Shown: piece by piece, positions 4,783-35,006 of the stretch | How the letters are laid out: each line of letters opens with the position of its first letter | How positions within the stretch are numbered: the first letter of the stretch is position 1 | DNA from: a virus | IMG/VR virus record: IMGVR_UViG_3300037307_000543 | Location: 3,138-67,137 of that record | Direction: 5' to 3' (one strand) | DNA length: 64,000 bases | Program-made: the position numbers and the translations under genes | Notes under the pieces: model-generated | What the model was told of the DNA's origin: nothing | Databases searched by the model: none | What the model saw: the letters and a program-made list of their open reading frames with translations, nothing else

Positions 4783-7700
4783 AACTTTATTCCCCTTTCT
4801 GATAAAACAGAACACCATTCAGATTGGCTTGCTAACCGATAAATATCCCTTGAATTTTTTATGCCTTCAACAGCAAAGACCTCTTCTGCCGGTATTCCGT
4901 TAAAAATTTGGCCAAAAAGTCCAGGTAGCGTTATCAATTCAAATTCTGCAACTTCTCCGTTGTCTTCTTTAGTCGTAATTACTATTCTTTTTTGAATAAA
5001 TCCTTTCTGATTTTCAACCACCCTAACATAATCATCCGATAATTTCCCAAATTGGCCTTCAAGTTGTGGAAATCGAGACATTCCAAATTCACCATAATCA
5101 AAGTCTACTACTTTAACGTCGGAAATTATCCCACTACTTTTCGTATCAATCCCAGTCGAAGGATGTATATATCTGACCGAAAACTTCTTGCCCTTTAACT
5201 CTAAACCTGCTTTAACAAAATCGGCCTCTGTTTTCTTAAGGATTTGCCTTGCGCCTGGAGTATTGAGCAGGGTCAATGCGTGACCCCACTCGTGCATAAG
5301 GAGTTCTTTTGGTCCCCCCATAGAATCAATTACCTTTACGGCTTCTGGAAAATTATAATTAACCAAATTTATATTAAGGGTGTTTTTATGACCAATAAAC
5401 GCAATTTGATTTCCAAGCGCTGAATCAAGACTCCCTCCATAATCCACTTCGTCTCTTATCACGATTTTTACTGGGCCTGGACTTTCTAAATGGCCAAATT
5501 GCCTCATAAGGTCTTTTTGAAATCCCAATGGATTGTTTATATAATCTATCACTTTTGCTTTTTCCGGAAAACGCCTTCTATATGTTTTGATATTGAAATT
5601 CTTAATTTCATTAAATACTTTAATATCAAGAATAGATTGTGCAGTAGTGGTGGCATTTTTTCCAATTGCACTTCCAGACAGTACACCAATCGCAATTTTT
5701 TGGGCTTTTGATGTATTTCCTCCTGCTCTCGCGAATATATTCGAGTTCCTCAATATCTTATAGGCCCCAACAGATAAAGCTACTCCCCCAATAACGACCA
5801 CTCCCCCTACTATTTTCTTCGTCTTATCAGACATTATAACATCAGACGCAACACCTTCCTGTACGCTATTCTTGTCTCTGAATTTTCCATCCCGGTGTCT
5901 CGGGTGTTCAGATTCAACAAATTCCTCTTTAGACATTTCCTTCTTTACAATATCTTCTTCTCCAGGCCCATTTTTCACTAATTTAACTTGATTCCTCAAT
6001 GCGGAATAGACATCGTTCAAAACATCCAATACCGCCTCAAATCTCGTATGCCCAGGAAGAGCGTTTTCTATCGCGATCTTGCAAGCATCAGAGCAATCAA
6101 CCAAGTCGTCTATAAACACCTCGGCCATTGCGGTAGCGAGATCGTCAGCAGACGGAGCACGCCCCTGCAAAGGCTTCTCTTCTTCGTTCATCCCCTTTGT
6201 TATAAATTCAACAAATCCCTTCTTTGTTCCCTCCCTTATTTGTGCGTCGTACTCCCCGTACCACTCATCGTCCCCTCGTTTCGTTTCCTGCTTTTTGATT
6301 TCTTCCTGTAAAATTTTACCAGCTTCCGCTAGATTTTCTATGTCTTTTTTATGCTTTGGGTTTTTGATATATTCGACAAGGGCTTGAGCGGTCACTTGAT
6401 GAAGTTTCTTATCGTCCTTCATCAAATCTAAAAGTATTGCAGTCACTCTTGGATCATGAGCCTTAAAACCCCTTCTTGCAAATTCTTCTTGTAATGCTGC
6501 AAGCGCAAGGTTTGGAAGATATCTTTCTATAGTTGCCAAAAGAGATCTATAAAGCGGAACCGCTCCTTCCATTTCCCTACGAAGATGTTCGCCAACCAAC
6601 TTTGAAACAAGTCTCTCTTGAATATCCTGCTGGAATCCTTGTGCCGTATATGCTTCTGCTCTTCTTCTTTCTTTTTCCGCCAAAGCTCTTTCATACTTCG
6701 TCCATTCCGCGAGGTTTGGCTTTTCCTGCTTCTCCGCCTTTCCTTCCTCTTTCCGAAGAGCAGTCGATATCGCCTCTTTTTCTTTTTTCGATGACGTAAC
6801 TTCTTTCACGAAATTCATAATATCTTTGTGAAAATAAAACGCAGTTCCAGCAGCTCCCGTAGTAGCCCCAATTCCTGCCCAAGCCCTCACACTAAATGGG
6901 GGGATCACTTTCTCCATAAAGAAGTCTCCCAATGCTCCCCAATCGGAAGGAATTCGATCAGGTTTGTTCGGATCAAGTCTTCCGAGAGCCTTATCATACT
7001 CGTTTATTTCGTCTGGAGTATATGGAGTATAAATATAGTCTGGAATGATACCGTGCTTCCTCGTAAACTCTAAGTCTCCATTGCTTTTCCTTATTACAAT
7101 GCCATGACCCTCAAGCCAAGCGTTGGTTTTCGCCTCTATAGCTTTTGCAGTAACAAGTTTTTTGTTCTTCAACATCTCTGGAGTAACATCGTTCGAGATC
7201 TCAACCGCGTGTCTTTCCGCCTTCGTAATCGTATCCGCAAGGTCAGGCTTCAGAACGATTCGCCTTCCTCTCCATTCAAAAGGAAGCAATGGATCAGTAG
7301 ATTCCTTCGGAACAAGTTCAAGAATCTTCCTTTGTAGTTTTCCATCTTTGTTCCAATACGCTCTTTCCCACGCAGAAGTCAAAAGATCCTCAACCTGAAC
7401 TTTTCCGTTTCTTCCAACAAATACTATTCCAGTGTCTCCATCAAGAGAACCTTGCCTTGGCCTCCAATTCATCAAATCTTGTTTCACTTTGGTATTGACA
7501 AATGCCCCTTTACCAGGACCATAAATCGTTCCCTCAAGACCATATCCTCTCAATGTAGGCCCAAGACGATAGGCTCTTATTGCCTTTCCTCCAGTCTTTC
7601 CTTTCAGTTTCGCAACCGCACTTGCTATCCATCTATTAAGAAAATTAACCTGTTTCGCATCAATAGTGCCCCAACTCGTAAACGGACCAATTTTCGCAGA

Positions 7701-24625: not shown

Positions 24626-25276
24626 CTATAGTCCTTCACCATTCCACTTTACCCGTTTACTGTTCCGAAAGATCTCGACTATCTCATCGAAAGAGTGGCC
24701 TTTTTTGAGATGATAGCAAACAGAACTTATATTCACTTGAAAAAGCCTTACCCAATCTTCAAGAATCATTTTCTTTCCACCATAGGAAAACCAATGATTT
24801 CTTCTCGTGTTTCGATTTTGCTCATAATTGGTTGCCCATTTGCAATTTCCTGGGGAGTAATATCCGTTGTTATCTATTCTTTCTATCGACATTTCTTTTG
24901 GACGTGGCCCCATATCTTCGTAGAAGTTTTCAAATGACTTAAGCCAATGATCGCAAACCTTGATGCCTCTTGCACCGTAAATACGATATTTATTATTGTT
25001 CTTATTATAACATCGGTCTTTTATTCCTACATAAGTGCTATATTCCCTACTCTTATAAAGTCCATGTTTAATTCTTATAGGAGACTTGTTTTCTGCTTTT
25101 AAGCAACCACACGACTTGGTTTCTCCTCTTATAAGCTGATCGCGACGAACAATTGTCATGCCCCCGCAATCACACTTGCAAACCCAAAACGAATGGCCAC
25201 GTTTGTTACTACCGCGATACGATAGAACAATTAAGCGACCAAATCTCTTTTCGACCAAATCAATCAATCTTGACAT
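24626..25276 (-). CDS. HNH-family homing-endonuclease-like protein (paralog 3)
   Basis: Same motif set as paralog 2; shares a 143-bp near-identical DNA block with it. Confidence 0.8.
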   Translation of the reverse strand: MSRLIDLVEKRFGRLIVLSYRGSNKRGHSFWVCKCDCGGMTIVRRDQLIRGETKSCGCLKAENKSPIRIKHGLYKSREYSTYVGIKDRCYNKNNNKYRIYGARGIKVCDHWLKSFENFYEDMGPRPKEMSIERIDNNGYYSPGNCKWATNYEQNRNTRRNHWFSYGGKKMILEDWVRLFQVNISSVCYHLKKGHSFDEIVEIFRNSKRVKWNGEGL

Positions 25277-25327: not shown

Positions 25328-27073
25328 TCAGAACTCCACCAGCACCGAGCCCTGCAAGCCAAAGATGGTTGACAGATCTCTATTCGGATCTATCCTCACT
25401 CCTTCACCCTGGCCCGTAGAAAGCGGATTCGGAATCGTGTTGAGAGTAGAGAGATCCTGAAACGCGTGTTTGAACCATTGCCCAGGCTTCCACCATTCCA
25501 TCCTCATTCCGAACGTAAGCGCCTCCAAAAGCTTCCACTGAAGACCACAGCCGATGGAGTTACCAAGAAAGTTATCGGCTACGACTGGAGCAATTGTCGG
25601 CGCAGAAGAAATCCCGCCCCCATACTGGCCCCATATCGTAGAGTTATTGGAAGCCCTTCTCGAATAGAGAAACGTACCAAAAAGGTTCAAGTTCGACGCT
25701 ATGGCATAATCCAATCTGATCCCAAGCCCAAGATAATCATAAAAGACTGGATAACCAGAAGCGTTATAGCTGTTGTTTCCCGTACCAAAAAACGGTAAAA
25801 CAAAGGCATAAGGATCTACCGCCTGCCATCTGTTGCCAGAAACGGTGTAAAGCTGAAACTTATCATCTACCGGCCTTCCCGTAGAAGTTCCCGTAGCGGC
25901 CGCGAAGTTAAGGGTTCCGTTCGACGTTTGATGCCCAGAAGAGTAAAAGTGAACAAGTGTCGTCTTCAACGGCCCCGCTATCGTCCCCATTTCAACCATC
26001 CACGCGAGAGGTGTACCCGAAATCTGCCTCCCTCCCGTGCGAACAACCGAAATCTTCTGATAGCCAAATTCTCCGTTGAAAAAGAACCCGCCCCTCATGT
26101 ACTTGAGATACGCAGAGAGAGTATGGAAAAAGATGTCACTGTGAATTGGAAAATTCTGTAAATCGGTTCCGTCGCTTCCAGCCCCGCCAGAAATAACTCC
26201 CTCACTAAGCATGGCAAAAGCCGCACCGTTCACATCATCACGCAGGGTCCACGTCGTGAACGGTGTTGCATGTACTCCTCTCCATGCTTGACTGCGAGCA
26301 AGAAACCCAATATCGGCAGACCCATCTCTGTAAATAAGGCCAGCGTACACGTCAAGCTGCTTCTGCTCGGTCCTATCAAATGTAGAAGCAACGGTTAACG
26401 GAGTCCTATCCTTATTCCTTGTATCACCGCGAGAGGAAAATTCTCCCGTATCGGAGAGTACGACAGCAGTCAAAAAGGAAAGAGGACCATAGGGAACCAC
26501 AAGCCGCACAAAATCTGCCCTGTAGTCTCCAATGGTCCATCCAAGGCCGAACTGAAAAGGTGTTCGCCCAATAGAAATCTTCCCCCACGGAATATCCGCA
26601 TCTACCCAGAGCGACCTGACCCCAGGAACCGCGATAGCATTCTCAGGTTCAAGAGTGCGAGAAGAAAGGCGAATATAGCCAGCATACGGCTGTGTATTAA
26701 GCCAGTTGCTACCGCCCACATACTGCCCATTAAGGTCTCCAGAAAAGCCAACTTCGCTATTGACCCTCACGGCCTGATTCACAATAAATTTTGGCCACAA
26801 GACAAGGCGTTGAATCCAAAAAGATCCGTCACTTCCTTTGGAACTCAATCCTTCCGTAAGGAGCACGCCATTAACCGGCCCAGGGAAGCCTATCGTAGTT
26901 TGACCGCTCCCAATCGAACTTTGGGCTGTATCAATATTCCCAAAGAGACTGTTTTTCCCAATTTGGGAAAAGTAAACGTATTTGTTCTCGTATATAACGG
27001 GAACATCGAAAGAAAACGCCATTGCACTTGTCGTCACACAAAGCGCAAGAAACAGAAACAGAAGCTTTTTCAT
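25328..27073 (-). CDS. Outer-membrane beta-barrel (porin-like) protein
   Basis: Sec signal peptide MKKLLFLFLALCVTTSAMA, alternating hydrophobic strands rich in aromatic residues and Gly, C-terminal ...GSVLVEF. Confidence 0.75.
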   Translation of the reverse strand: MKKLLFLFLALCVTTSAMAFSFDVPVIYENKYVYFSQIGKNSLFGNIDTAQSSIGSGQTTIGFPGPVNGVLLTEGLSSKGSDGSFWIQRLVLWPKFIVNQAVRVNSEVGFSGDLNGQYVGGSNWLNTQPYAGYIRLSSRTLEPENAIAVPGVRSLWVDADIPWGKISIGRTPFQFGLGWTIGDYRADFVRLVVPYGPLSFLTAVVLSDTGEFSSRGDTRNKDRTPLTVASTFDRTEQKQLDVYAGLIYRDGSADIGFLARSQAWRGVHATPFTTWTLRDDVNGAAFAMLSEGVISGGAGSDGTDLQNFPIHSDIFFHTLSAYLKYMRGGFFFNGEFGYQKISVVRTGGRQISGTPLAWMVEMGTIAGPLKTTLVHFYSSGHQTSNGTLNFAAATGTSTGRPVDDKFQLYTVSGNRWQAVDPYAFVLPFFGTGNNSYNASGYPVFYDYLGLGIRLDYAIASNLNLFGTFLYSRRASNNSTIWGQYGGGISSAPTIAPVVADNFLGNSIGCGLQWKLLEALTFGMRMEWWKPGQWFKHAFQDLSTLNTIPNPLSTGQGEGVRIDPNRDLSTIFGLQGSVLVEF

Positions 27074-27145: not shown

Positions 27146-27230
27146 CTGAAGCTTTACAATTGCCTTTGAGCCTCTCAACACCTAAAGGTGAAAGATTCCG
27201 GACTTGATTATGCCGCCACATAATCAACCT
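27146..27230 (-). ncRNA. IS200/IS605 right end; 3' part of the omega-RNA plus predicted guide
   Basis: GGAATC-TTTCACCTTTAGGTG-TTGAGAGGC-TCAA matches the typical tnpB right-end layout, ending at 27166. Guide would be AGGCAATTGTAAAGCTTCAG (27165-27146). The 5' boundary is unknown. Confidence 0.65.
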
Positions 27231-28266
27231 CGTGGATCGCTCCGATCCCGACAACGAGAGTGTTGACAGCAGCGTTGATGTCTCTGTCATGTAGAGTTCC
27301 ACACTCTGAACACTTCCATTGTCTTACCGACAAGCCCGCCAATCCTGAAGGACCAGTTAAGGCACCACAAGACGAACAGGTCTTGGTGGAATTATTGCTA
27401 TCAACTTCAACATATTTCCTACGACAAGAACTGCACTTATAGGAAAGCATTCGTTGAAGTTGATAGTGGCCCGAAGAGGCCACCGATTTACCAAATCTCT
27501 TAGAAATGGCTTTTATATTATCTCTACTAAAAACAATTATGGAATTCTCTGAAACTAATCGCCTACTTAATTTGTGATTACGATCCTTCCTCTTGTTAGC
27601 TATCCTTTCATTAATTCTAGCGGTCAATTTTTTATTCTTTCCTCGCTGAGCCTGTCCTAACCTTTTAATTCTCTTCTCAAGTTCCTTCGGGTGTTTTATC
27701 TTCTCCCCCGTTGAAAGAGTTATAAGATGTTTGAATCCTGGATCTATCCCAACAGCCCCATTACCCACTATTGGAATCTCGTTAGGATTAGTGTCAATTA
27801 CCAAACATAGATACCATCCAGAAGCCTTTTTAACAATTCTACCATTCTTGATTTTGCCACCTAGCAAAGTCTGTTTATGAAACCGAGTCTTGCCAACTCC
27901 AGGAATAGAAATGTGGTTATTTGTTGGCGGCCTAAACGGATCGGGAAAATAAATACTATTAAGCTTGTTTCTCTGTCCTTTAAGCCTTGGACTTTTGGTT
28001 CTTTTCTTAAAACAATTAATCCAAGCCAGATAAGCTTGAGACAGAACACCTTGTAAAACATGGCTAGGTATAGCAAGTTTTTTACTATGGTTTGCAAGCA
28101 GATTTTGAAAGTCTTTGGGAGAATGATAAATCTTGTTTTGAGCATCTAACTCTATTTTTCTAATGGCCCAATTCCAAACACCCGTAAGGTTCCATAGCCA
28201 CTCATTAAGTTGAGTTTCTTGTTTACGAGTCAGTCTTAATTTTAATTGTCTCTGAATCATTGGCAT
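27208..28266 (-). mobile_element. tnpB: TnpB-family RNA-guided protein (IS200/IS605-type, no tnpA seen) with atypical RuvC-II
   Basis: QLKLRLTRKQ, VGIDPG (RuvC-I), STKTCSSCG and WKCSECG zinc finger, HDRDINAA (RuvC-III); RuvC-II reads IIVFSRDN instead of IviEdL. Confidence 0.88.
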
Positions 28267-29069: not shown

Positions 29070-29100
29070 GAAAGGGAGCCCATGCCCAGGACTCCCTTTC
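29070..29100 (-). terminator. Probable intrinsic terminator downstream of the structured RNA
   Basis: GAAAGGGAG...CTCCCTTTC stem with A/T-rich flanks. Confidence 0.55.
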
Positions 29101-29149
29101 TTTTATAGCTTACTAGCTTTTCAAGAGCTGCTGCTATTTTTTGTAGTCC

Positions 29150-29390
29150 GCCATCAGTCCTTCTCGACCGTGGTTAAATAACACTTGCTCTGCCATTGAG
29201 CTACGTCGGCATAGGTTCGGAGCCGACGACCGGATTTGAACCGGCAACCAGTGCTTGGTCTCGAAGTGTCCGACTTAGGACGGATAACGATAAAGCTGAG
29301 GGCTCAACACGATAACGACCAAGAAAATCGCCTTTCTGGTTTACAATAATACGAGAAAGGCTTGATCACGATAACGAAGACACTGAGCCC
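29150..29390 (-). ncRNA. Structured RNA with a circularly permuted tRNA-like domain (29254-29181)
   Basis: T arm GCCGG-TTCAAAT-CCGGT and acceptor 3' strand CGTCGGC come before an 11-nt loop, then acceptor 5' strand GCCGACG and D arm GCTC-AATGGCA-GAGC; GCACT/AGTGT close the stem. No anticodon loop. Outer boundaries are approximate. Confidence 0.75.
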
Positions 29391-30151
29391 TATCTTCCGT
29401 TATGAATGTAGCTGAAGATCTCCTTCCCTACTTCCTCTTTGATTACTTCAGCCGTGTTCGCCCGCATACGCGCCTTCTTCACGGCCTCGATCAGTTCACC
29501 AATCCTGCGAAGCATCTCCTGACGCCTGCGAGGAAAGACCTTCCCGGTCCATACAGCCTGCACGGTGCGCCCAATCGGCCGGTCCTCGGTCCATTCCTTG
29601 ATCTGAGCCGGATGCTTATCGGTAGGCTCCACCATGACCTTGTGAAGGTGGACCTTCTCGGTCTTGTGCCTGATAATAGGATCTCGCGCGCGGAACACGC
29701 CATCGCCCTTATCCTTGTCAGCATCCCATACGACTCCACCTTCGACTACGGGAATGTTCTCATACACCGTCTTCCACTTGTCAAGCCAGTTCTCCAGCGT
29801 CAAGAGAAGCGTGGCGGGAAGCTTTGCAATGAGAATCGTACCGTCTTCCAGCACGATATCGGCCATAGCCTGTTGATTGGTCGTTTCCTTCTGAGCCAGG
29901 GCGTCAAGAAAGCGGATGGCCTCCTTCGAGAACGCATCGAGATCCTGATCCACCGTTGCCGATACTTCGACAGACTCGTATCCCTGCGGCTCTTCGTTCT
30001 TTCGACTTTCGTCGAACATCTCAAGCCGCTTGACCGCACCGTCATACCGGTGAGTCTGTTTGGTAAAAAAGGCAATAGTGTCTGCCTGAGCCTTCTGAGC
30101 AGTAGCCTGAAGGTCGGCAATCACCGCCAGCACTTCATGGAGTTGTGACAT
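29390..30151 (-). CDS. Helical hypothetical protein directly upstream of the structured RNA
   Basis: 253-aa ORF with a GGAGG ribosome-binding site; its stop abuts the first RNA stem. Confidence 0.75.
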   Translation of the reverse strand: MSQLHEVLAVIADLQATAQKAQADTIAFFTKQTHRYDGAVKRLEMFDESRKNEEPQGYESVEVSATVDQDLDAFSKEAIRFLDALAQKETTNQQAMADIVLEDGTILIAKLPATLLLTLENWLDKWKTVYENIPVVEGGVVWDADKDKGDGVFRARDPIIRHKTEKVHLHKVMVEPTDKHPAQIKEWTEDRPIGRTVQAVWTGKVFPRRRQEMLRRIGELIEAVKKARMRANTAEVIKEEVGKEIFSYIHNGR

Positions 30152-34019: not shown

Positions 34020-35006
34020 TCAAGAAGGAAATTCTGCATCCGGATACTTCTTAATAAAGTCCGACACCTCTGAATTCGGCACATACACCTTCTCTCCATT
34101 AACCTCAAGCACCACATACCTTCCTTTCCAATTCGCCGGAACGGTTAAAGCGTTCTCTACGCTCCACCCGCTCCTTAACCTACTGACAATCAGCTCATAG
34201 TTTAATCCTGTCTTCTTCGCCCACCACTTCATAGAGGCTGTCTTTCCGTTATGAGTTATCGTCTTTGCACTTCTAGGAATATAAGGCTTCGTTAGCGCTT
34301 TTTCCACAGTCCATCCGTTCCTTATTCTGGAGCGCAGCGCTTCCGGATGTATTCCTACCTTCTTTGCCCAACTCCCTATTGGGGCCGTTTCTCCCTTATA
34401 TGTAATTGTCTCTGTTGGCATCCTTTCTTGACAAAGACGGAACAATTTATCTTCCGGCCAATTCCTGTTTAATCTATAATAAATAACATAAGGTGAAATT
34501 CCTACAAGCTCGGCAACAAGAGAAACCGGAAGAAGTTTTCCATTATACTCAACTAACCTGTTAGTTCTTTTATTTCGACATTGCTCTTTCTGGGTGGCCC
34601 ATCTGCAATTGCCAGGCTCATAATCTCCGTCATTATCAATCCTCTCTATCGCATATCCTTCCGGTCTTGGCCCCATATCTTCGCAAAATGCCTCAAATGA
34701 TTTTTTCCATCTATCGCACATCTTTATTCCACGACCGCCATAGTTTTTGTAAGCTCTATTGCCCTTGCTATAACAGCGTTGTTTTATTCCTTTCCATATA
34801 GACCAGAGAGGCCCCTTTTTCTCTTCCATCATTTTCCTTTTTTTTGAGTTGTAGCATGTTCTACATGACTTGATTCCACTCTTAAGGGCAAGACGAGTTA
34901 CTTCAATTTCTTTTCCACAAGAGCATTTACACAGATAGGTTGTTTCTTCAAGTCGCCTTAACACCTTTAGCGAGCCTACTGTAGTCCCTTCGTATGTTTT
35001 GACCAT
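34020..35006 (-). CDS. HNH-family homing-endonuclease-like protein (paralog 4) with three C-terminal DNA-binding repeats
   Basis: YGGRGIKMCDRW, IERIDNDGDYEPGNCRWAT; repeated ITY/HxG...W...G...LRSRI..GWTVE.AL units. Confidence 0.8.
   Translation of the reverse strand: MVKTYEGTTVGSLKVLRRLEETTYLCKCSCGKEIEVTRLALKSGIKSCRTCYNSKKRKMMEEKKGPLWSIWKGIKQRCYSKGNRAYKNYGGRGIKMCDRWKKSFEAFCEDMGPRPEGYAIERIDNDGDYEPGNCRWATQKEQCRNKRTNRLVEYNGKLLPVSLVAELVGISPYVIYYRLNRNWPEDKLFRLCQERMPTETITYKGETAPIGSWAKKVGIHPEALRSRIRNGWTVEKALTKPYIPRSAKTITHNGKTASMKWWAKKTGLNYELIVSRLRSGWSVENALTVPANWKGRYVVLEVNGEKVYVPNSEVSDFIKKYPDAEFPS

What the first reader, a model, noticed from the sequence alone, without database searches (positions are those of the whole stretch)
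29150..29290. Circularly permuted tRNA-like RNA with no anticodon and a closed acceptor stem
Seen on the minus strand, in this order: GCACT, variable loop, T arm (TTCAAAT loop), CGTCGGC, an 11-nt linker starting TCC, GCCGACG, D arm, AGTGT. All tRNA helices pair, but the 3' half precedes the 5' half. The flanks (GTCC...GAGACC and GGTC...GGAC) can extend the anticodon-position stem. Acceptor G1-C72, C2-G71 and U73 are Thr-like. Established: bacterial YrlA Y RNAs have this kind of permuted tRNA-mimic topology and usually sit beside Ro60; permuted tRNA genes are known in some algae. No Ro60/TROVE gene is in this window. Inference: a tRNA mimic or decoy (for example against anticodon nucleases or uncharged-tRNA sensors) partnered with the 253-aa ORF, or a two-piece RNA matured by RNase P and CCA addition.
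Basis: partly seen in the sequence, partly recalled or inferred. Interest (0 to 1): 0.85.

Follow-up and report, generated by a model that had tools for sequence, protein, structure and literature searches.

The report
Phage tRNA-mimic RNA beside DUF7873
The flagged stretch is a real, back-to-front tRNA look-alike with no anticodon; it heads a roughly 325-base phage RNA that almost always follows one uncharacterised gene (DUF7873), which suggests an undescribed RNA-protein pair related to bacterial Y RNAs that usually has no Ro60 gene in the same phage.

Summary
On the minus strand, 29254-29181 encodes a T arm, a 7-bp acceptor stem, a linker, a D arm and a 5-bp anticodon-position stem in permuted order. 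A long helix closes it instead of an anticodon loop.

It is not a chance fold. A covariance model built from relatives scores the window copy at 96.3 bits (E 5e-13). The same RNA lies just downstream of the DUF7873 gene in 84 of 88 related loci and in cultured Rhizobium, Klebsiella, Ralstonia and Gordonia phages. Twenty of 21 modelled pairs show compensatory changes. After the acceptor 3' strand and discriminator, 55 of 63 copies encode CCA; the window has CCG.

The closest known family is YrlA, the bacterial Y RNA, but its defining features are not met:
- Rfam score is 30 bits against a threshold of 69.
- The Ro60-binding motif is absent.
- No Ro60 gene occurs in 16 of 17 near-complete carrier phages.

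Best reading: a Y-RNA-like tRNA mimic made from the DUF7873 transcript, probably cut by RNase P into two pieces and bound by a DUF7873 dimer. Transcription, processing, binding and function are all untested.

This scan has already noted the DUF7873-RNA pair on other DNA (41 notes, at least 31 genomes), mostly with two tRNA-like heads. This window has one head plus a hexamer-repeat hairpin.

The parts
29390..30151 (-). DUF7873 gene (253 aa), the constant partner of the RNA. Its TAG stop codon (29392-29390) overlaps the first base of the RNA's 5' hairpin.
   Evidence: Pfam PF25283, E 1.8e-63. 431 relatives in IMG/VR and 74 cultured-phage records. AF2 model pLDDT 90.9 with no informative structural match. 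Homodimer predicted with ipSAE 0.74 against a best control of 0.00.
29300..29390 (-). 5' hairpin P0. The closing stem is GGGCTCA (29390-29384) with TGAGCCC (29306-29300). It encloses repeated TCGTTATCGTG units and an inner hairpin. In relatives the loop holds 5-8 hexamer repeats of the YAGNNU type.
   Evidence: Stem complementarity for own partners is -9.9 kcal/mol against -6.8 for mismatched partners, p 8e-14. Many compensatory stem variants are visible in the folds. YA(G/T) spacing of 6 nt makes up 22% of spacings against 5% in controls.
29285..29299 (-). Conserved single-stranded joint (TCAGCTTTATCGTTA in the window; family consensus CAG-nTT-nAG) between P0 and the closing helix.
   Evidence: Invariant or near-invariant columns at the 5' end of alignments A2/A3 and of model R1.
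29255..29284 (-). 5' strand of the long closing helix (P1 TCCGTCC 29284-29278; P2 CTTCGAGACC 29266-29257).
   Evidence: MFE fold. Own against mismatched flank duplexes: -25.2 against -15.9 kcal/mol, p 9e-22 over 63 copies.
29181..29254 (-). Permuted tRNA-like head: anticodon-position stem P3 (GCACT 29254-29250 with AGTGT 29185-29181), variable loop, T arm (29245-29229), acceptor stem (29228-29222 with 29210-29204), D arm (29201-29187).
   Evidence: Sequence. Covariation: T and acceptor stems 100% paired, D stem 98.5%, P3 69%. RNAalifold on 51 sequences: 15 of 16 pairs with compensatory changes. Partial Rfam YrlA alignment.
29211..29221 (-). Discriminator T (29221), CCG (29220-29218) and linker AACCTAT (29217-29211) capping the acceptor stem. 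This is the predicted RNase P and 3'-trimming site.
   Evidence: 55 of 63 family copies have CCA here. Linker length runs 3-79 nt with no other conservation. U is at -1 in 29 of 63 copies. The window copy has CCG.
29147..29180 (-). 3' strand of the closing helix (internal loop TATTTAACCAC; P2 GGTCGAGAAG 29169-29160; P1 GGCGGA 29152-29147).
29071..29099 (-). Terminator-like 11-bp hairpin that probably ends the RNA unit. A strong sigma-70-like promoter for the next gene follows at 29034-29005.
   Evidence: Read from the sequence. Promoter scan: 11 of 12 matches with an extended -10. No promoter-like site between the DUF7873 stop and the RNA. The U tract is weak, so termination is inferred.

Best explanation
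The flagged element is the tRNA-like head of a roughly 325-nt phage non-coding RNA (about 29390 to 29070, minus strand). Its architecture is that of YrlA, the bacterial Y RNA: T arm, acceptor stem and D arm sit on a long helix formed by the RNA's two flanks, with no anticodon loop. It belongs to a distinct, undescribed family that is encoded immediately 3' of DUF7873 and is usually found in phages with no Ro60 gene.

Likely mechanism (all steps inferred):
1. The RNA is transcribed with DUF7873, since the hairpin P0 starts at the stop codon and no promoter lies between them.
2. The head folds into a tRNA elbow plus acceptor arm.
3. Host RNase P cuts 5' of G1 (29210), and the 3' side is trimmed or repaired to N-CCA. 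The result is a two-piece molecule held together by the acceptor stem and closing helix, as shown for M. smegmatis YrlA.
4. A DUF7873 homodimer binds the RNA, possibly through the hexamer-repeat hairpin and closing helix.

The resulting particle would present a tRNA-shaped surface to tRNA-handling host or phage factors (processing, repair, or tRNA-targeting defence). Its function cannot be decided from sequence.
For: - Real, conserved structure: R1 gives 96.3 bits, E 5e-13, in the window. 20 of 21 pairs have compensatory changes, and the covariation score is 0.80 against 0.215. Closing-helix complementarity for own against mismatched partners has p 9e-22; for P0, p 8e-14.
- Link with DUF7873: the RNA is found on the same strand just downstream of the gene in 84 of 88 loci; two of the four misses have under 120 nt of downstream sequence. 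No other gene neighbour is conserved. Each of 16 near-complete genomes has exactly one full-length match, next to DUF7873. The pair is also present in cultured Rhizobium, Klebsiella, Ralstonia and Gordonia phages.
- Ro60 gene usually absent: no TROVE in the record and TROVE in only 1 of 17 near-complete carrier genomes. The Ro-binding motif GNCGAAN0-1G occurs in 1 of 63 copies. Ro60-adjacent modules in two phages match only the tRNA-like core of R1, not its flanks.
- Processing: 7-bp acceptor stem, CCA in 55 of 63 copies within an otherwise unconserved linker of 3-79 nt, and U at -1 in 29 of 63. M. smegmatis YrlA, with a 7-bp stem, is cut by RNase P in vivo and in vitro and gains CCA (PMC4201824).
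- Dimer: ipSAE 0.74 against a best control of 0.00, runs agree in at least 97% of contacts, partner pLDDT 91. The mark was reached by 20 of 30 solved homodimers and 1 of 23 monomers.
Against: - There are no transcript, processing or binding data. The only listed sequencing run that holds the stretch is a DNA run that may be the source sample; no RNA run was listed.
- The window copy has CCG rather than CCA.
- In several relatives the linker is a hairpin that pairs with CCA or extends the acceptor stem. This could hinder cleavage and suggests that CCA may serve RNase P recognition or pure mimicry rather than a free 3' end.
- DUF7873 is near-neutral (median pI 6.6) and has no recognisable RNA-binding fold.
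- Tight synteny is also compatible with a cis-acting 3' UTR element, or with an enzyme-substrate relation rather than a stable particle.
- My loci are the 80 IMG/VR relatives closest to this window's protein plus 8 genome hits, so the near-universal pairing is shown only for this subfamily.
- An earlier scan note reports a later check that put only 22/100 on stable binding.
Confidence: 0.55

Rival explanations
1. It is an ordinary YrlA-type Y RNA that works with a Ro60 (Rsr) protein supplied by the host. DUF7873 is then an accessory factor or merely a neighbour.
For: The only Rfam match is YrlA, a full-length alignment at 30.1 bits, E 1.6e-4. Ro60-adjacent modules in Rhizobium phage RHph_TM30 score no better with that model (36-37 bits) than the DUF7873-linked RNA of the same phage (35.9 bits), so the Rfam threshold misses phage YrlA. 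In three of the four carrier phages that have a TROVE (or, in one, weak TROVE-like) hit, that ORF lies within about 1-6 kb of DUF7873.
Against: The Ro-binding motif GNCGAAN0-1G is present in 1 of 63 copies. 16 of 17 near-complete carrier genomes encode no TROVE protein. RHph_TM30 has separate YrlA-like modules beside its own TROVE gene, and those share only the tRNA-like core with this family. The family-specific flanks and P0 hairpin always travel with DUF7873. The host is unknown, so host Ro60 cannot be excluded.
Confidence: 0.12
2. It is a cis-acting 3' UTR or processing element of the DUF7873 transcript. A tRNA-shaped punctuation mark would be cut by RNase P to define or stabilise the mRNA 3' end, or to separate it from downstream tRNA genes. 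It would have no trans-acting role.
For: P0 starts at the stop codon, and the median gap from stop codon to the model start is 88 nt. There is no promoter-like site between gene and RNA. Genuine tRNA genes often follow within 60-100 nt in relatives, and the module sits inside tRNA islands in cultured phages.
Against: A punctuation signal needs only a minimal acceptor/T-arm. Here a D arm, a 25-30-bp closing helix, a conserved joint and a hexamer-repeat hairpin are all maintained by compensatory change. The element accompanies DUF7873 only, once per genome, and not other genes of the tRNA islands. The window itself has no tRNA genes.
Confidence: 0.15
3. It is a true circularly permuted tRNA gene, or a two-piece tmRNA, that matures into a decoding or trans-translation RNA.
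For: The 3' half precedes the 5' half. CCA is encoded in most copies, and all tRNA tertiary-contact positions are present (U8, A14, G18-G19, T54-T55-C56, A58). The gene order is the same as in permuted tRNA genes and two-piece tmRNA genes.
Against: There is no anticodon loop: the anticodon-position stem runs into a long helix made by the two flanks. ARAGORN, which detects permuted tmRNA, and Rfam tRNA/tmRNA models find nothing here. G3-U70 occurs in 1 of 63 copies, and the discriminator and first pairs vary. No conserved tag reading frame was seen.
Confidence: 0.03
4. It is an artefact: two adjacent or tandem tRNA genes read across their junction, a tRNA-derived attP core, or a decaying tRNA relic.
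For: Junctions of tandem tRNAs give the order T arm, acceptor 3' strand, spacer, acceptor 5' strand, D arm. Chen et al. warn that dimeric tRNAs can be false positives. Some partial core-only R1 hits in large phages may be of this kind.
Against: No tRNA is detected on either side in the window. The acceptor strands pair 7 of 7 across the linker in every copy while their sequences differ between phages. The outer flanks pair with each other. The element keeps a fixed position after DUF7873 in unrelated genome contexts.
Confidence: 0.02

Closest known systems
YrlA (Y RNA-like A; Rfam RF02553), the Ro60/Rsr-bound bacterial and phage Y RNA (Chen et al. 2014, PMC4201824), especially the M. smegmatis form
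   Same: Both have the permuted order T arm, acceptor-like stem, D arm inside a multiloop closed by a long helix formed by the RNA's 5' and 3' parts, and no anticodon. The 7-bp acceptor stem matches M. smegmatis YrlA, which is cut by RNase P and receives CCA to become a two-piece RNA. The Rfam YrlA model aligns end to end. The tRNA-like core of my model also hits modules next to phage TROVE genes.
   Different: The score is 30 bits against a gathering score of 69. The GNCGAAN0-1G Ro-binding motif is absent. There is no Ro60 gene in the record or in 16 of 17 near-complete carrier genomes. The constant neighbour is DUF7873, not rsr. The family has its own flanks: the stop-codon hairpin with hexamer repeats and a conserved joint. 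CCA is encoded in 87% of copies rather than added.
Circularly permuted tRNA genes of Cyanidioschyzon merolae and other algae (from my own knowledge: Soma et al. 2007)
   Same: The 3' half of the tRNA is encoded upstream of the 5' half, joined by a linker at the acceptor stem that RNase P and 3' processing would remove.
   Different: Those genes yield complete tRNAs with an anticodon loop, through a circular intermediate made by the splicing endonuclease at a bulge-helix-bulge motif. Here the anticodon side is a long closed helix and there is no anticodon.
Two-piece tmRNA from permuted ssrA genes (from my own knowledge: Keiler, Shapiro and Williams 2000)
   Same: The permuted gene order matches: a T arm/acceptor 3' strand/CCA piece comes before the acceptor 5' strand piece. 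Maturation is expected to give two base-paired RNAs.
   Different: There is no G3-U70 alanine identity (1 of 63), no tag reading frame, and a canonical D arm is present. ARAGORN and the Rfam tmRNA model are negative.
Double-headed DUF7873-linked tRNA-mimic RNAs noted earlier by this scan on other DNA (AI notes)
   Same: Same protein partner, same position downstream of the gene, same permuted tRNA-like module, same absence of Ro60.
   Different: Those notes describe two tandem tRNA-like modules, mostly with loop-capped acceptor stems. This window's subfamily has one module with an N-CCA-type linker, and in place of the first module it has a hairpin filled with hexamer repeats.

Membership tests
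YrlA / bacterial Y RNA (RF02553) | Permuted tRNA-like domain (T arm, acceptor-like stem, D arm) closed by a helix of the RNA's two flanks | tested here: met
   Sequence, fold, covariation, flank duplex test.
YrlA / bacterial Y RNA (RF02553) | Score at or above the Rfam gathering threshold (69 bits) | tested here: not met
   30.1 bits in the window. No YrlA hit at gathering level in 20 related loci. Caveat: phage modules beside a TROVE gene also score only 36-37 bits, so this threshold is a weak test for phage RNAs.
YrlA / bacterial Y RNA (RF02553) | Ro60-binding helix with the GNCGAAN0-1G motif on the 5' strand (Chen et al. 2014) | tested here: not met
   The motif is present in the 5' flank of 1 of 63 copies and in the 3' flank of 1 of 63. 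The window has only CGA at the aligned place.
YrlA / bacterial Y RNA (RF02553) | Encoded next to an rsr (Ro60/TROVE) gene | tested here: not met
   No TROVE in the 67.9-kb record. TROVE found in 3 of 40 carrier records and in 1 of 17 that are at least 90% complete.
YrlA / bacterial Y RNA (RF02553) | Bound by Ro60 in vivo | not testable with these tools
   Needs immunoprecipitation. The host and its Ro60 status are unknown.
Permuted tRNA gene (algal type) | Processing restores a complete tRNA with anticodon loop (bulge-helix-bulge junction, circular intermediate) | tested here: not met
   The anticodon-position stem continues into a 25-30-bp helix made by the flanks. No 7-nt loop is present, and ARAGORN finds no tRNA.
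Two-piece tmRNA | G3-U70 alanine identity, tag reading frame, and detection by ARAGORN or Rfam tmRNA models | tested here: not met
   G-U at 3-70 in 1 of 63 copies. ARAGORN and Rfam are negative.
DUF7873-linked tRNA-mimic RNA (provisional family, model R1) | Full-length match to the model on the same strand directly downstream of a DUF7873 gene | tested here: met
   Window 29126-29311(-): 96.3 bits over model positions 1-194, 79 nt after the stop codon. The window sequence was one of the 34 used to build the model, so its match is partly by construction. Loci not used for the model (for example L020, L045, L014, L095) score 91-138 bits.

The most novel reading that the evidence does not exclude
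A DUF7873 dimer and this RNA form a new ribonucleoprotein class, widespread in phages, that does not need Ro60. After RNase P cleavage and CCA maturation, the two-piece tRNA mimic would act as bait or adaptor for tRNA-directed host factors, for example by neutralising defence enzymes that attack the acceptor end or elbow of tRNAs, or by recruiting tRNA repair or processing enzymes to phage tRNAs. The hexamer-repeat hairpin would be the platform that the protein reads.
Probability: 0.25. Interest if true: 0.85.

Novelty: new variant of a known kind. Interest (0 to 1): 0.68.

Why it matters
Y RNAs with tRNA-like domains are so far understood only as partners of Ro60. Here the same tRNA-mimic module sits on a different scaffold with a different, completely uncharacterised protein partner. 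The pair occurs in hundreds of uncultured phages and in cultured phages of Rhizobium, Klebsiella, Serratia, Vibrio, Ralstonia, Gordonia and Arthrobacter, often inside tRNA gene islands.

If the pair is a particle, it is a second, independent use of tRNA mimicry in RNA-protein machines. It would also be a new player in the conflict over tRNAs between phages and hosts. It gives DUF7873 (Pfam PF25283) its first functional lead. It shows that the Rfam YrlA threshold misses phage members. It is directly testable in available laboratory phages.

Tried and rejected
**Checks that found nothing or did not help**
- ARAGORN and Rfam at gathering thresholds found nothing in the window.
- A single-protein scan of IMG/VR found no relatives. 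An alignment-based scan was needed.
- Structure-based function for DUF7873: Foldseek against PDB gave no hit with E at or below 0.001. VIA-align wide gave only generic helical-bundle matches with Z at or below 8.9. AFDB clusters returned only uncharacterised relatives. A PDB profile search found nothing. The ESM Atlas returned only its own family. PHROGs gave no family.
- Expression evidence: the only listed sequencing run holding the stretch is a DNA run that may be the source sample, and no RNA run was listed.
- Literature: no paper mentions DUF7873, and there was nothing on permuted tRNA-like RNAs in phages beyond Chen et al. 2014. Neither is held, so I could not check them.

**Readings considered and rejected**
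- Tandem-tRNA junction, attP core or tRNA relic.
- tmRNA or a functional permuted tRNA.
- Conserved Thr identity.

**A lead I dropped**
- I first suspected a loop-E-like AGUA/GAAAG internal loop in the closing helix. It is present in only part of the family: YGAA(A)G in the 3' flank of 19 of 63 copies, and A(G/U)UA in the 5' flank of 42 of 63. I do not claim it.

Full report
**1. The observation**

In order:
- anticodon-position strand GCACT
- a 4-nt variable loop
- a T arm with loop TTCAAAT
- acceptor 3' strand CGTCGGC
- T-CCG plus a 7-nt linker
- acceptor 5' strand GCCGACG
- TA
- a D arm with loop AATGGCA
- A, then AGTGT

All tRNA tertiary-contact positions are present (U8, A14, G18-G19, T54-T55-C56, A58, G53-C61). 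The flanks pair into a long helix. ARAGORN finds no tRNA or tmRNA in the window, and Rfam at gathering thresholds finds nothing. At a relaxed threshold the only relevant match is YrlA (RF02553): 30.1 bits against a gathering score of 69, E 1.6e-4, full-length alignment at 29158-29267. The single-sequence fold is only modestly better than shuffles (z -2.1), so the case rests on comparative data.

**2. Context**

The window is an IMG/VR phage record of 67.9 kb, estimated 71% complete. The 253-aa ORF directly upstream (29390-30151, minus strand) is DUF7873, Pfam PF25283, E 1.8e-63. No TROVE/Ro60 gene is in the record. Downstream lie a terminator-like hairpin (29099-29071), a strong sigma-70-like promoter (29034-29005) and an HTH_17 gene. 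No promoter-like site lies between DUF7873 and the RNA.

**3. Relatives**

- DUF7873 has 80 clusters in the protein collection and 431 confirmed places in IMG/VR. I fetched the best 80 of these plus 8 from prokaryotic assemblies.
- A regex needing only T-loop and D-arm motifs found the permuted arrangement 110-600 nt after the gene in 50 of 88 loci.
- A parser requiring T, acceptor and D stems to pair found it in about 75.
- A covariance model (R1: 34 sequences, 194 positions, 21 pairs) found it in 84 of 88 loci, always on the gene's strand just downstream. Two of the four misses have under 120 nt of downstream sequence.
- The window copy scores 96.3 bits (E 5e-13) at 29126-29311 and is the only hit in the window.
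- In 16 of 17 near-complete carrier genomes there is exactly one full-length match, next to DUF7873.
- No other protein-coding neighbour is shared. The next most common ORF cluster occurs in 8 of 89 loci.
- 74 cultured-phage records carry DUF7873: Vibrio 29, Rhizobium 12, Gordonia 11, Klebsiella 7, Serratia 6, Arthrobacter 3, Ralstonia 2 and others.
- R1 finds the RNA after the gene in all four cultured phages I examined: RHph_TM30 (90.9 bits), Klebsiella Centimanus (50), phiRSL1 (44.6) and Gordonia Ronaldo (40.9).

**4. Structure support**

- RNAalifold on 51 sequences recovers the T, acceptor and D stems. 15 of 16 pairs have compensatory changes, and no pairs are broken in the T and acceptor stems.
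- On A3, with the anticodon-position stem added, 92.4% of cells pair and 20 of 21 pairs change on both sides. The covariation score is 0.80 against 0.215 (0 of 500 shuffles reach it) and 0.09-0.17 for slid registers. The anticodon-position stem pairs in 69% of cells.
- The sequences were chosen for pairing in three of the stems. The informative parts are therefore the diversity of pair types and the fourth stem.
- The closing helix is too variable to align, so I tested it without an alignment. The 60 nt before the variable loop and the 60 nt after the D arm of the same copy pair at a mean of -25.2 kcal/mol, against -15.9 for flanks of different copies (63 copies, p 9e-22).

**5. The RNA is larger than the flagged stretch**

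The 30 nt starting at the DUF7873 stop codon pair with the conserved 5' end of the model (UUG-CCC...). Own partners give -9.9 kcal/mol against -6.8 for mismatched ones, p 8e-14, with many compensatory stem variants.

In the window this hairpin (P0) is GGGCTCA (29390-29384, overlapping the TAG stop) with TGAGCCC (29306-29300). Its loop holds short repeats. Across the family, YA(G/T) triplets are spaced 6 nt apart in 22% of cases against 5% in control regions. In the window the repeat unit is TCGTTATCGTG.

A conserved joint (CAG-nTT-nAG) links P0 to the closing helix. The whole unit runs from about 29390 to about 29070.

**6. The acceptor end**

After the acceptor 3' strand and one discriminator base, 55 of 63 distinct copies read CCA, where chance would give about 1 in 64. 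The linker that follows is 3-79 nt long with no other conservation. U precedes G1 in 29 of 63 copies. The window has CCG.

In some relatives the linker is a hairpin that pairs with CCA or simply lengthens the acceptor stem.

Identity elements are not conserved:
- discriminator G 23, U 21, A 13, C 6
- pair 1-72 is G-C in 33 of 63
- the window's C2-G71 occurs in 3 of 63
- G3-U70 occurs in 1 of 63

The Thr-like reading is therefore coincidental, and a family-wide aminoacylation identity is unlikely.

**7. Relation to YrlA and Ro60**

Chen et al. 2014 (PMC4201824) define YrlA by two modules: a tRNA-like module and a Ro60-binding helix with GNCGAAN0-1G on the 5' strand, next to rsr. They showed that M. 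smegmatis YrlA, which has a 7-bp acceptor stem, is cut by RNase P in vitro and in vivo and receives CCA, giving two Rsr-bound pieces.

Here the tRNA-like module is shared but the rest is not:
- The motif occurs in 1 of 63 copies.
- TROVE is present in 3 of 40 carrier records, and in 1 of 17 near-complete ones.
- Where a phage has both systems (RHph_TM30), its TROVE gene has its own YrlA-like modules upstream. Those match only positions 63-151 of R1. The full-length form sits by DUF7873, 6 kb away in the same tRNA island.
- The 358-kb record behind L046 shows the same split.
- The Ro60-adjacent modules also fail the Rfam threshold (36-37 bits), so that threshold alone does not separate the families.

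In three of the four carriers with a TROVE or weak TROVE-like hit, that ORF lies within about 1-6 kb of DUF7873. This may reflect a shared tRNA or RNA-repair island, or a functional relation.

**8. The protein**

The AF2 model is confident (pLDDT 90.9): a helical bundle with long beta-hairpins. No informative match was found in PDB, AFDB or the Atlas. The protein is near-neutral (median pI 6.6) with 13 conserved basic positions.

A symmetric, extensive homodimer is predicted:
- ipSAE 0.74 against a best control of 0.00
- runs agree in at least 97% of contacts
- partner pLDDT 91
- the mark was reached by 20 of 30 solved homodimers and 1 of 23 monomers; these counts hold only roughly, because my own alignment was used

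This supports dimerisation but does not show it. It says nothing about RNA binding.

**9. Interpretation**

Shown:
- a conserved, structured, permuted tRNA-like RNA of YrlA architecture
- obligate synteny with DUF7873 in this subfamily
- absence of the Ro60 gene and the Ro-binding motif
- conserved CCA

Inferred:
- co-transcription with DUF7873
- RNase P cleavage at G1 and maturation to a two-piece RNA
- binding by a DUF7873 dimer
- a role at the interface with tRNA-handling factors

My estimates:
- about 0.9 that the RNA is a real functional element linked to DUF7873
- about 0.5 that DUF7873 binds it stably
- about 0.5 that it is cut by RNase P in vivo

The rivals are host-Ro60 dependence, a cis 3' UTR or punctuation element, a true permuted tRNA or tmRNA, and an artefact. 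They are weighed in their own sections.

**10. Earlier notes of this scan**

41 notes in at least 31 genomes describe a DUF7873-linked tRNA-mimic RNA, mostly with two tandem modules. One note carries a later check that upheld the observation (90/100) but put stable Ro60-independent binding at 22/100.

My results agree on the pair and add four points for this window:
- a single-headed variant
- a stop-codon hairpin with hexamer repeats in place of the first head
- 87% encoded CCA
- a predicted protein homodimer

Noticed in passing
window 27208-28266 (-): A TnpB/IS605 OrfB-type protein of 352 aa (Cas12f1-like TNB and OrfB_IS605 domains; phrog_506) with no tnpA seen nearby. It lies about 0.8 kb beyond the RNA unit and is not part of it.
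   Followed up: no
window 24626-25276 (-) and 34020-35006 (-): Two HNH homing-endonuclease-like genes (phrog_374 / phrog_3377) flank the region. A 581-aa ORF (25328-27073) has a signal-peptide-like N terminus and no Pfam or PHROG match.
   Followed up: no
L096 2813-2896 (Klebsiella phage vB_KpM_Centimanus, OZ240615.1): The record annotates an ARAGORN 'tRNA-Stop(tta)' that overlaps the T arm and acceptor 3' strand of the DUF7873-linked RNA (R1 hit 2780-2993). This is probably a mis-call of the tRNA mimic rather than a suppressor tRNA.
   Followed up: partly
L101 4976-5229 (Rhizobium phage RHph_TM30, upstream of the TROVE gene at 5907-7475): YrlA-like modules beside a phage Ro60 gene score only 36-37 bits with Rfam YrlA (gathering score 69). 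The Rfam threshold therefore misses phage Y RNAs.
   Followed up: partly
L091 2594-3178 (358-kb IMG/VR phage record, downstream of a 563-aa TROVE ORF): Four tandem permuted tRNA-like modules (R1 core hits of 33-73 bits) lie next to a phage Ro60-like gene. The same genome has further core-only hits at 115-140 kb, some of which may be junctions of tandem tRNA genes.
   Followed up: no
L087 915-1252: A tmRNA (Rfam 52.7 bits) lies about 1.2 kb upstream of DUF7873 on a contig from an uncultured-bacterium assembly. The module may therefore sit beside other tRNA-like RNAs there.
   Followed up: no
L015 (IMG/VR record, contig 78702-78902) and L074 record (84817-85548): TROVE-like ORFs lie within about 1 kb (weak, 19 bits) and about 6 kb (53 bits) of DUF7873. 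When a carrier phage has a Ro60-like gene, it tends to be close to the DUF7873 module.
   Followed up: partly
window 29150-29132 (-): A 6-codon ATG...TAG mini-frame (M-A-D-Y-K-K) lies in the 3' tail of the RNA. It has no tmRNA-like tag features. I did not test it for conservation and take it to be chance.
   Followed up: no
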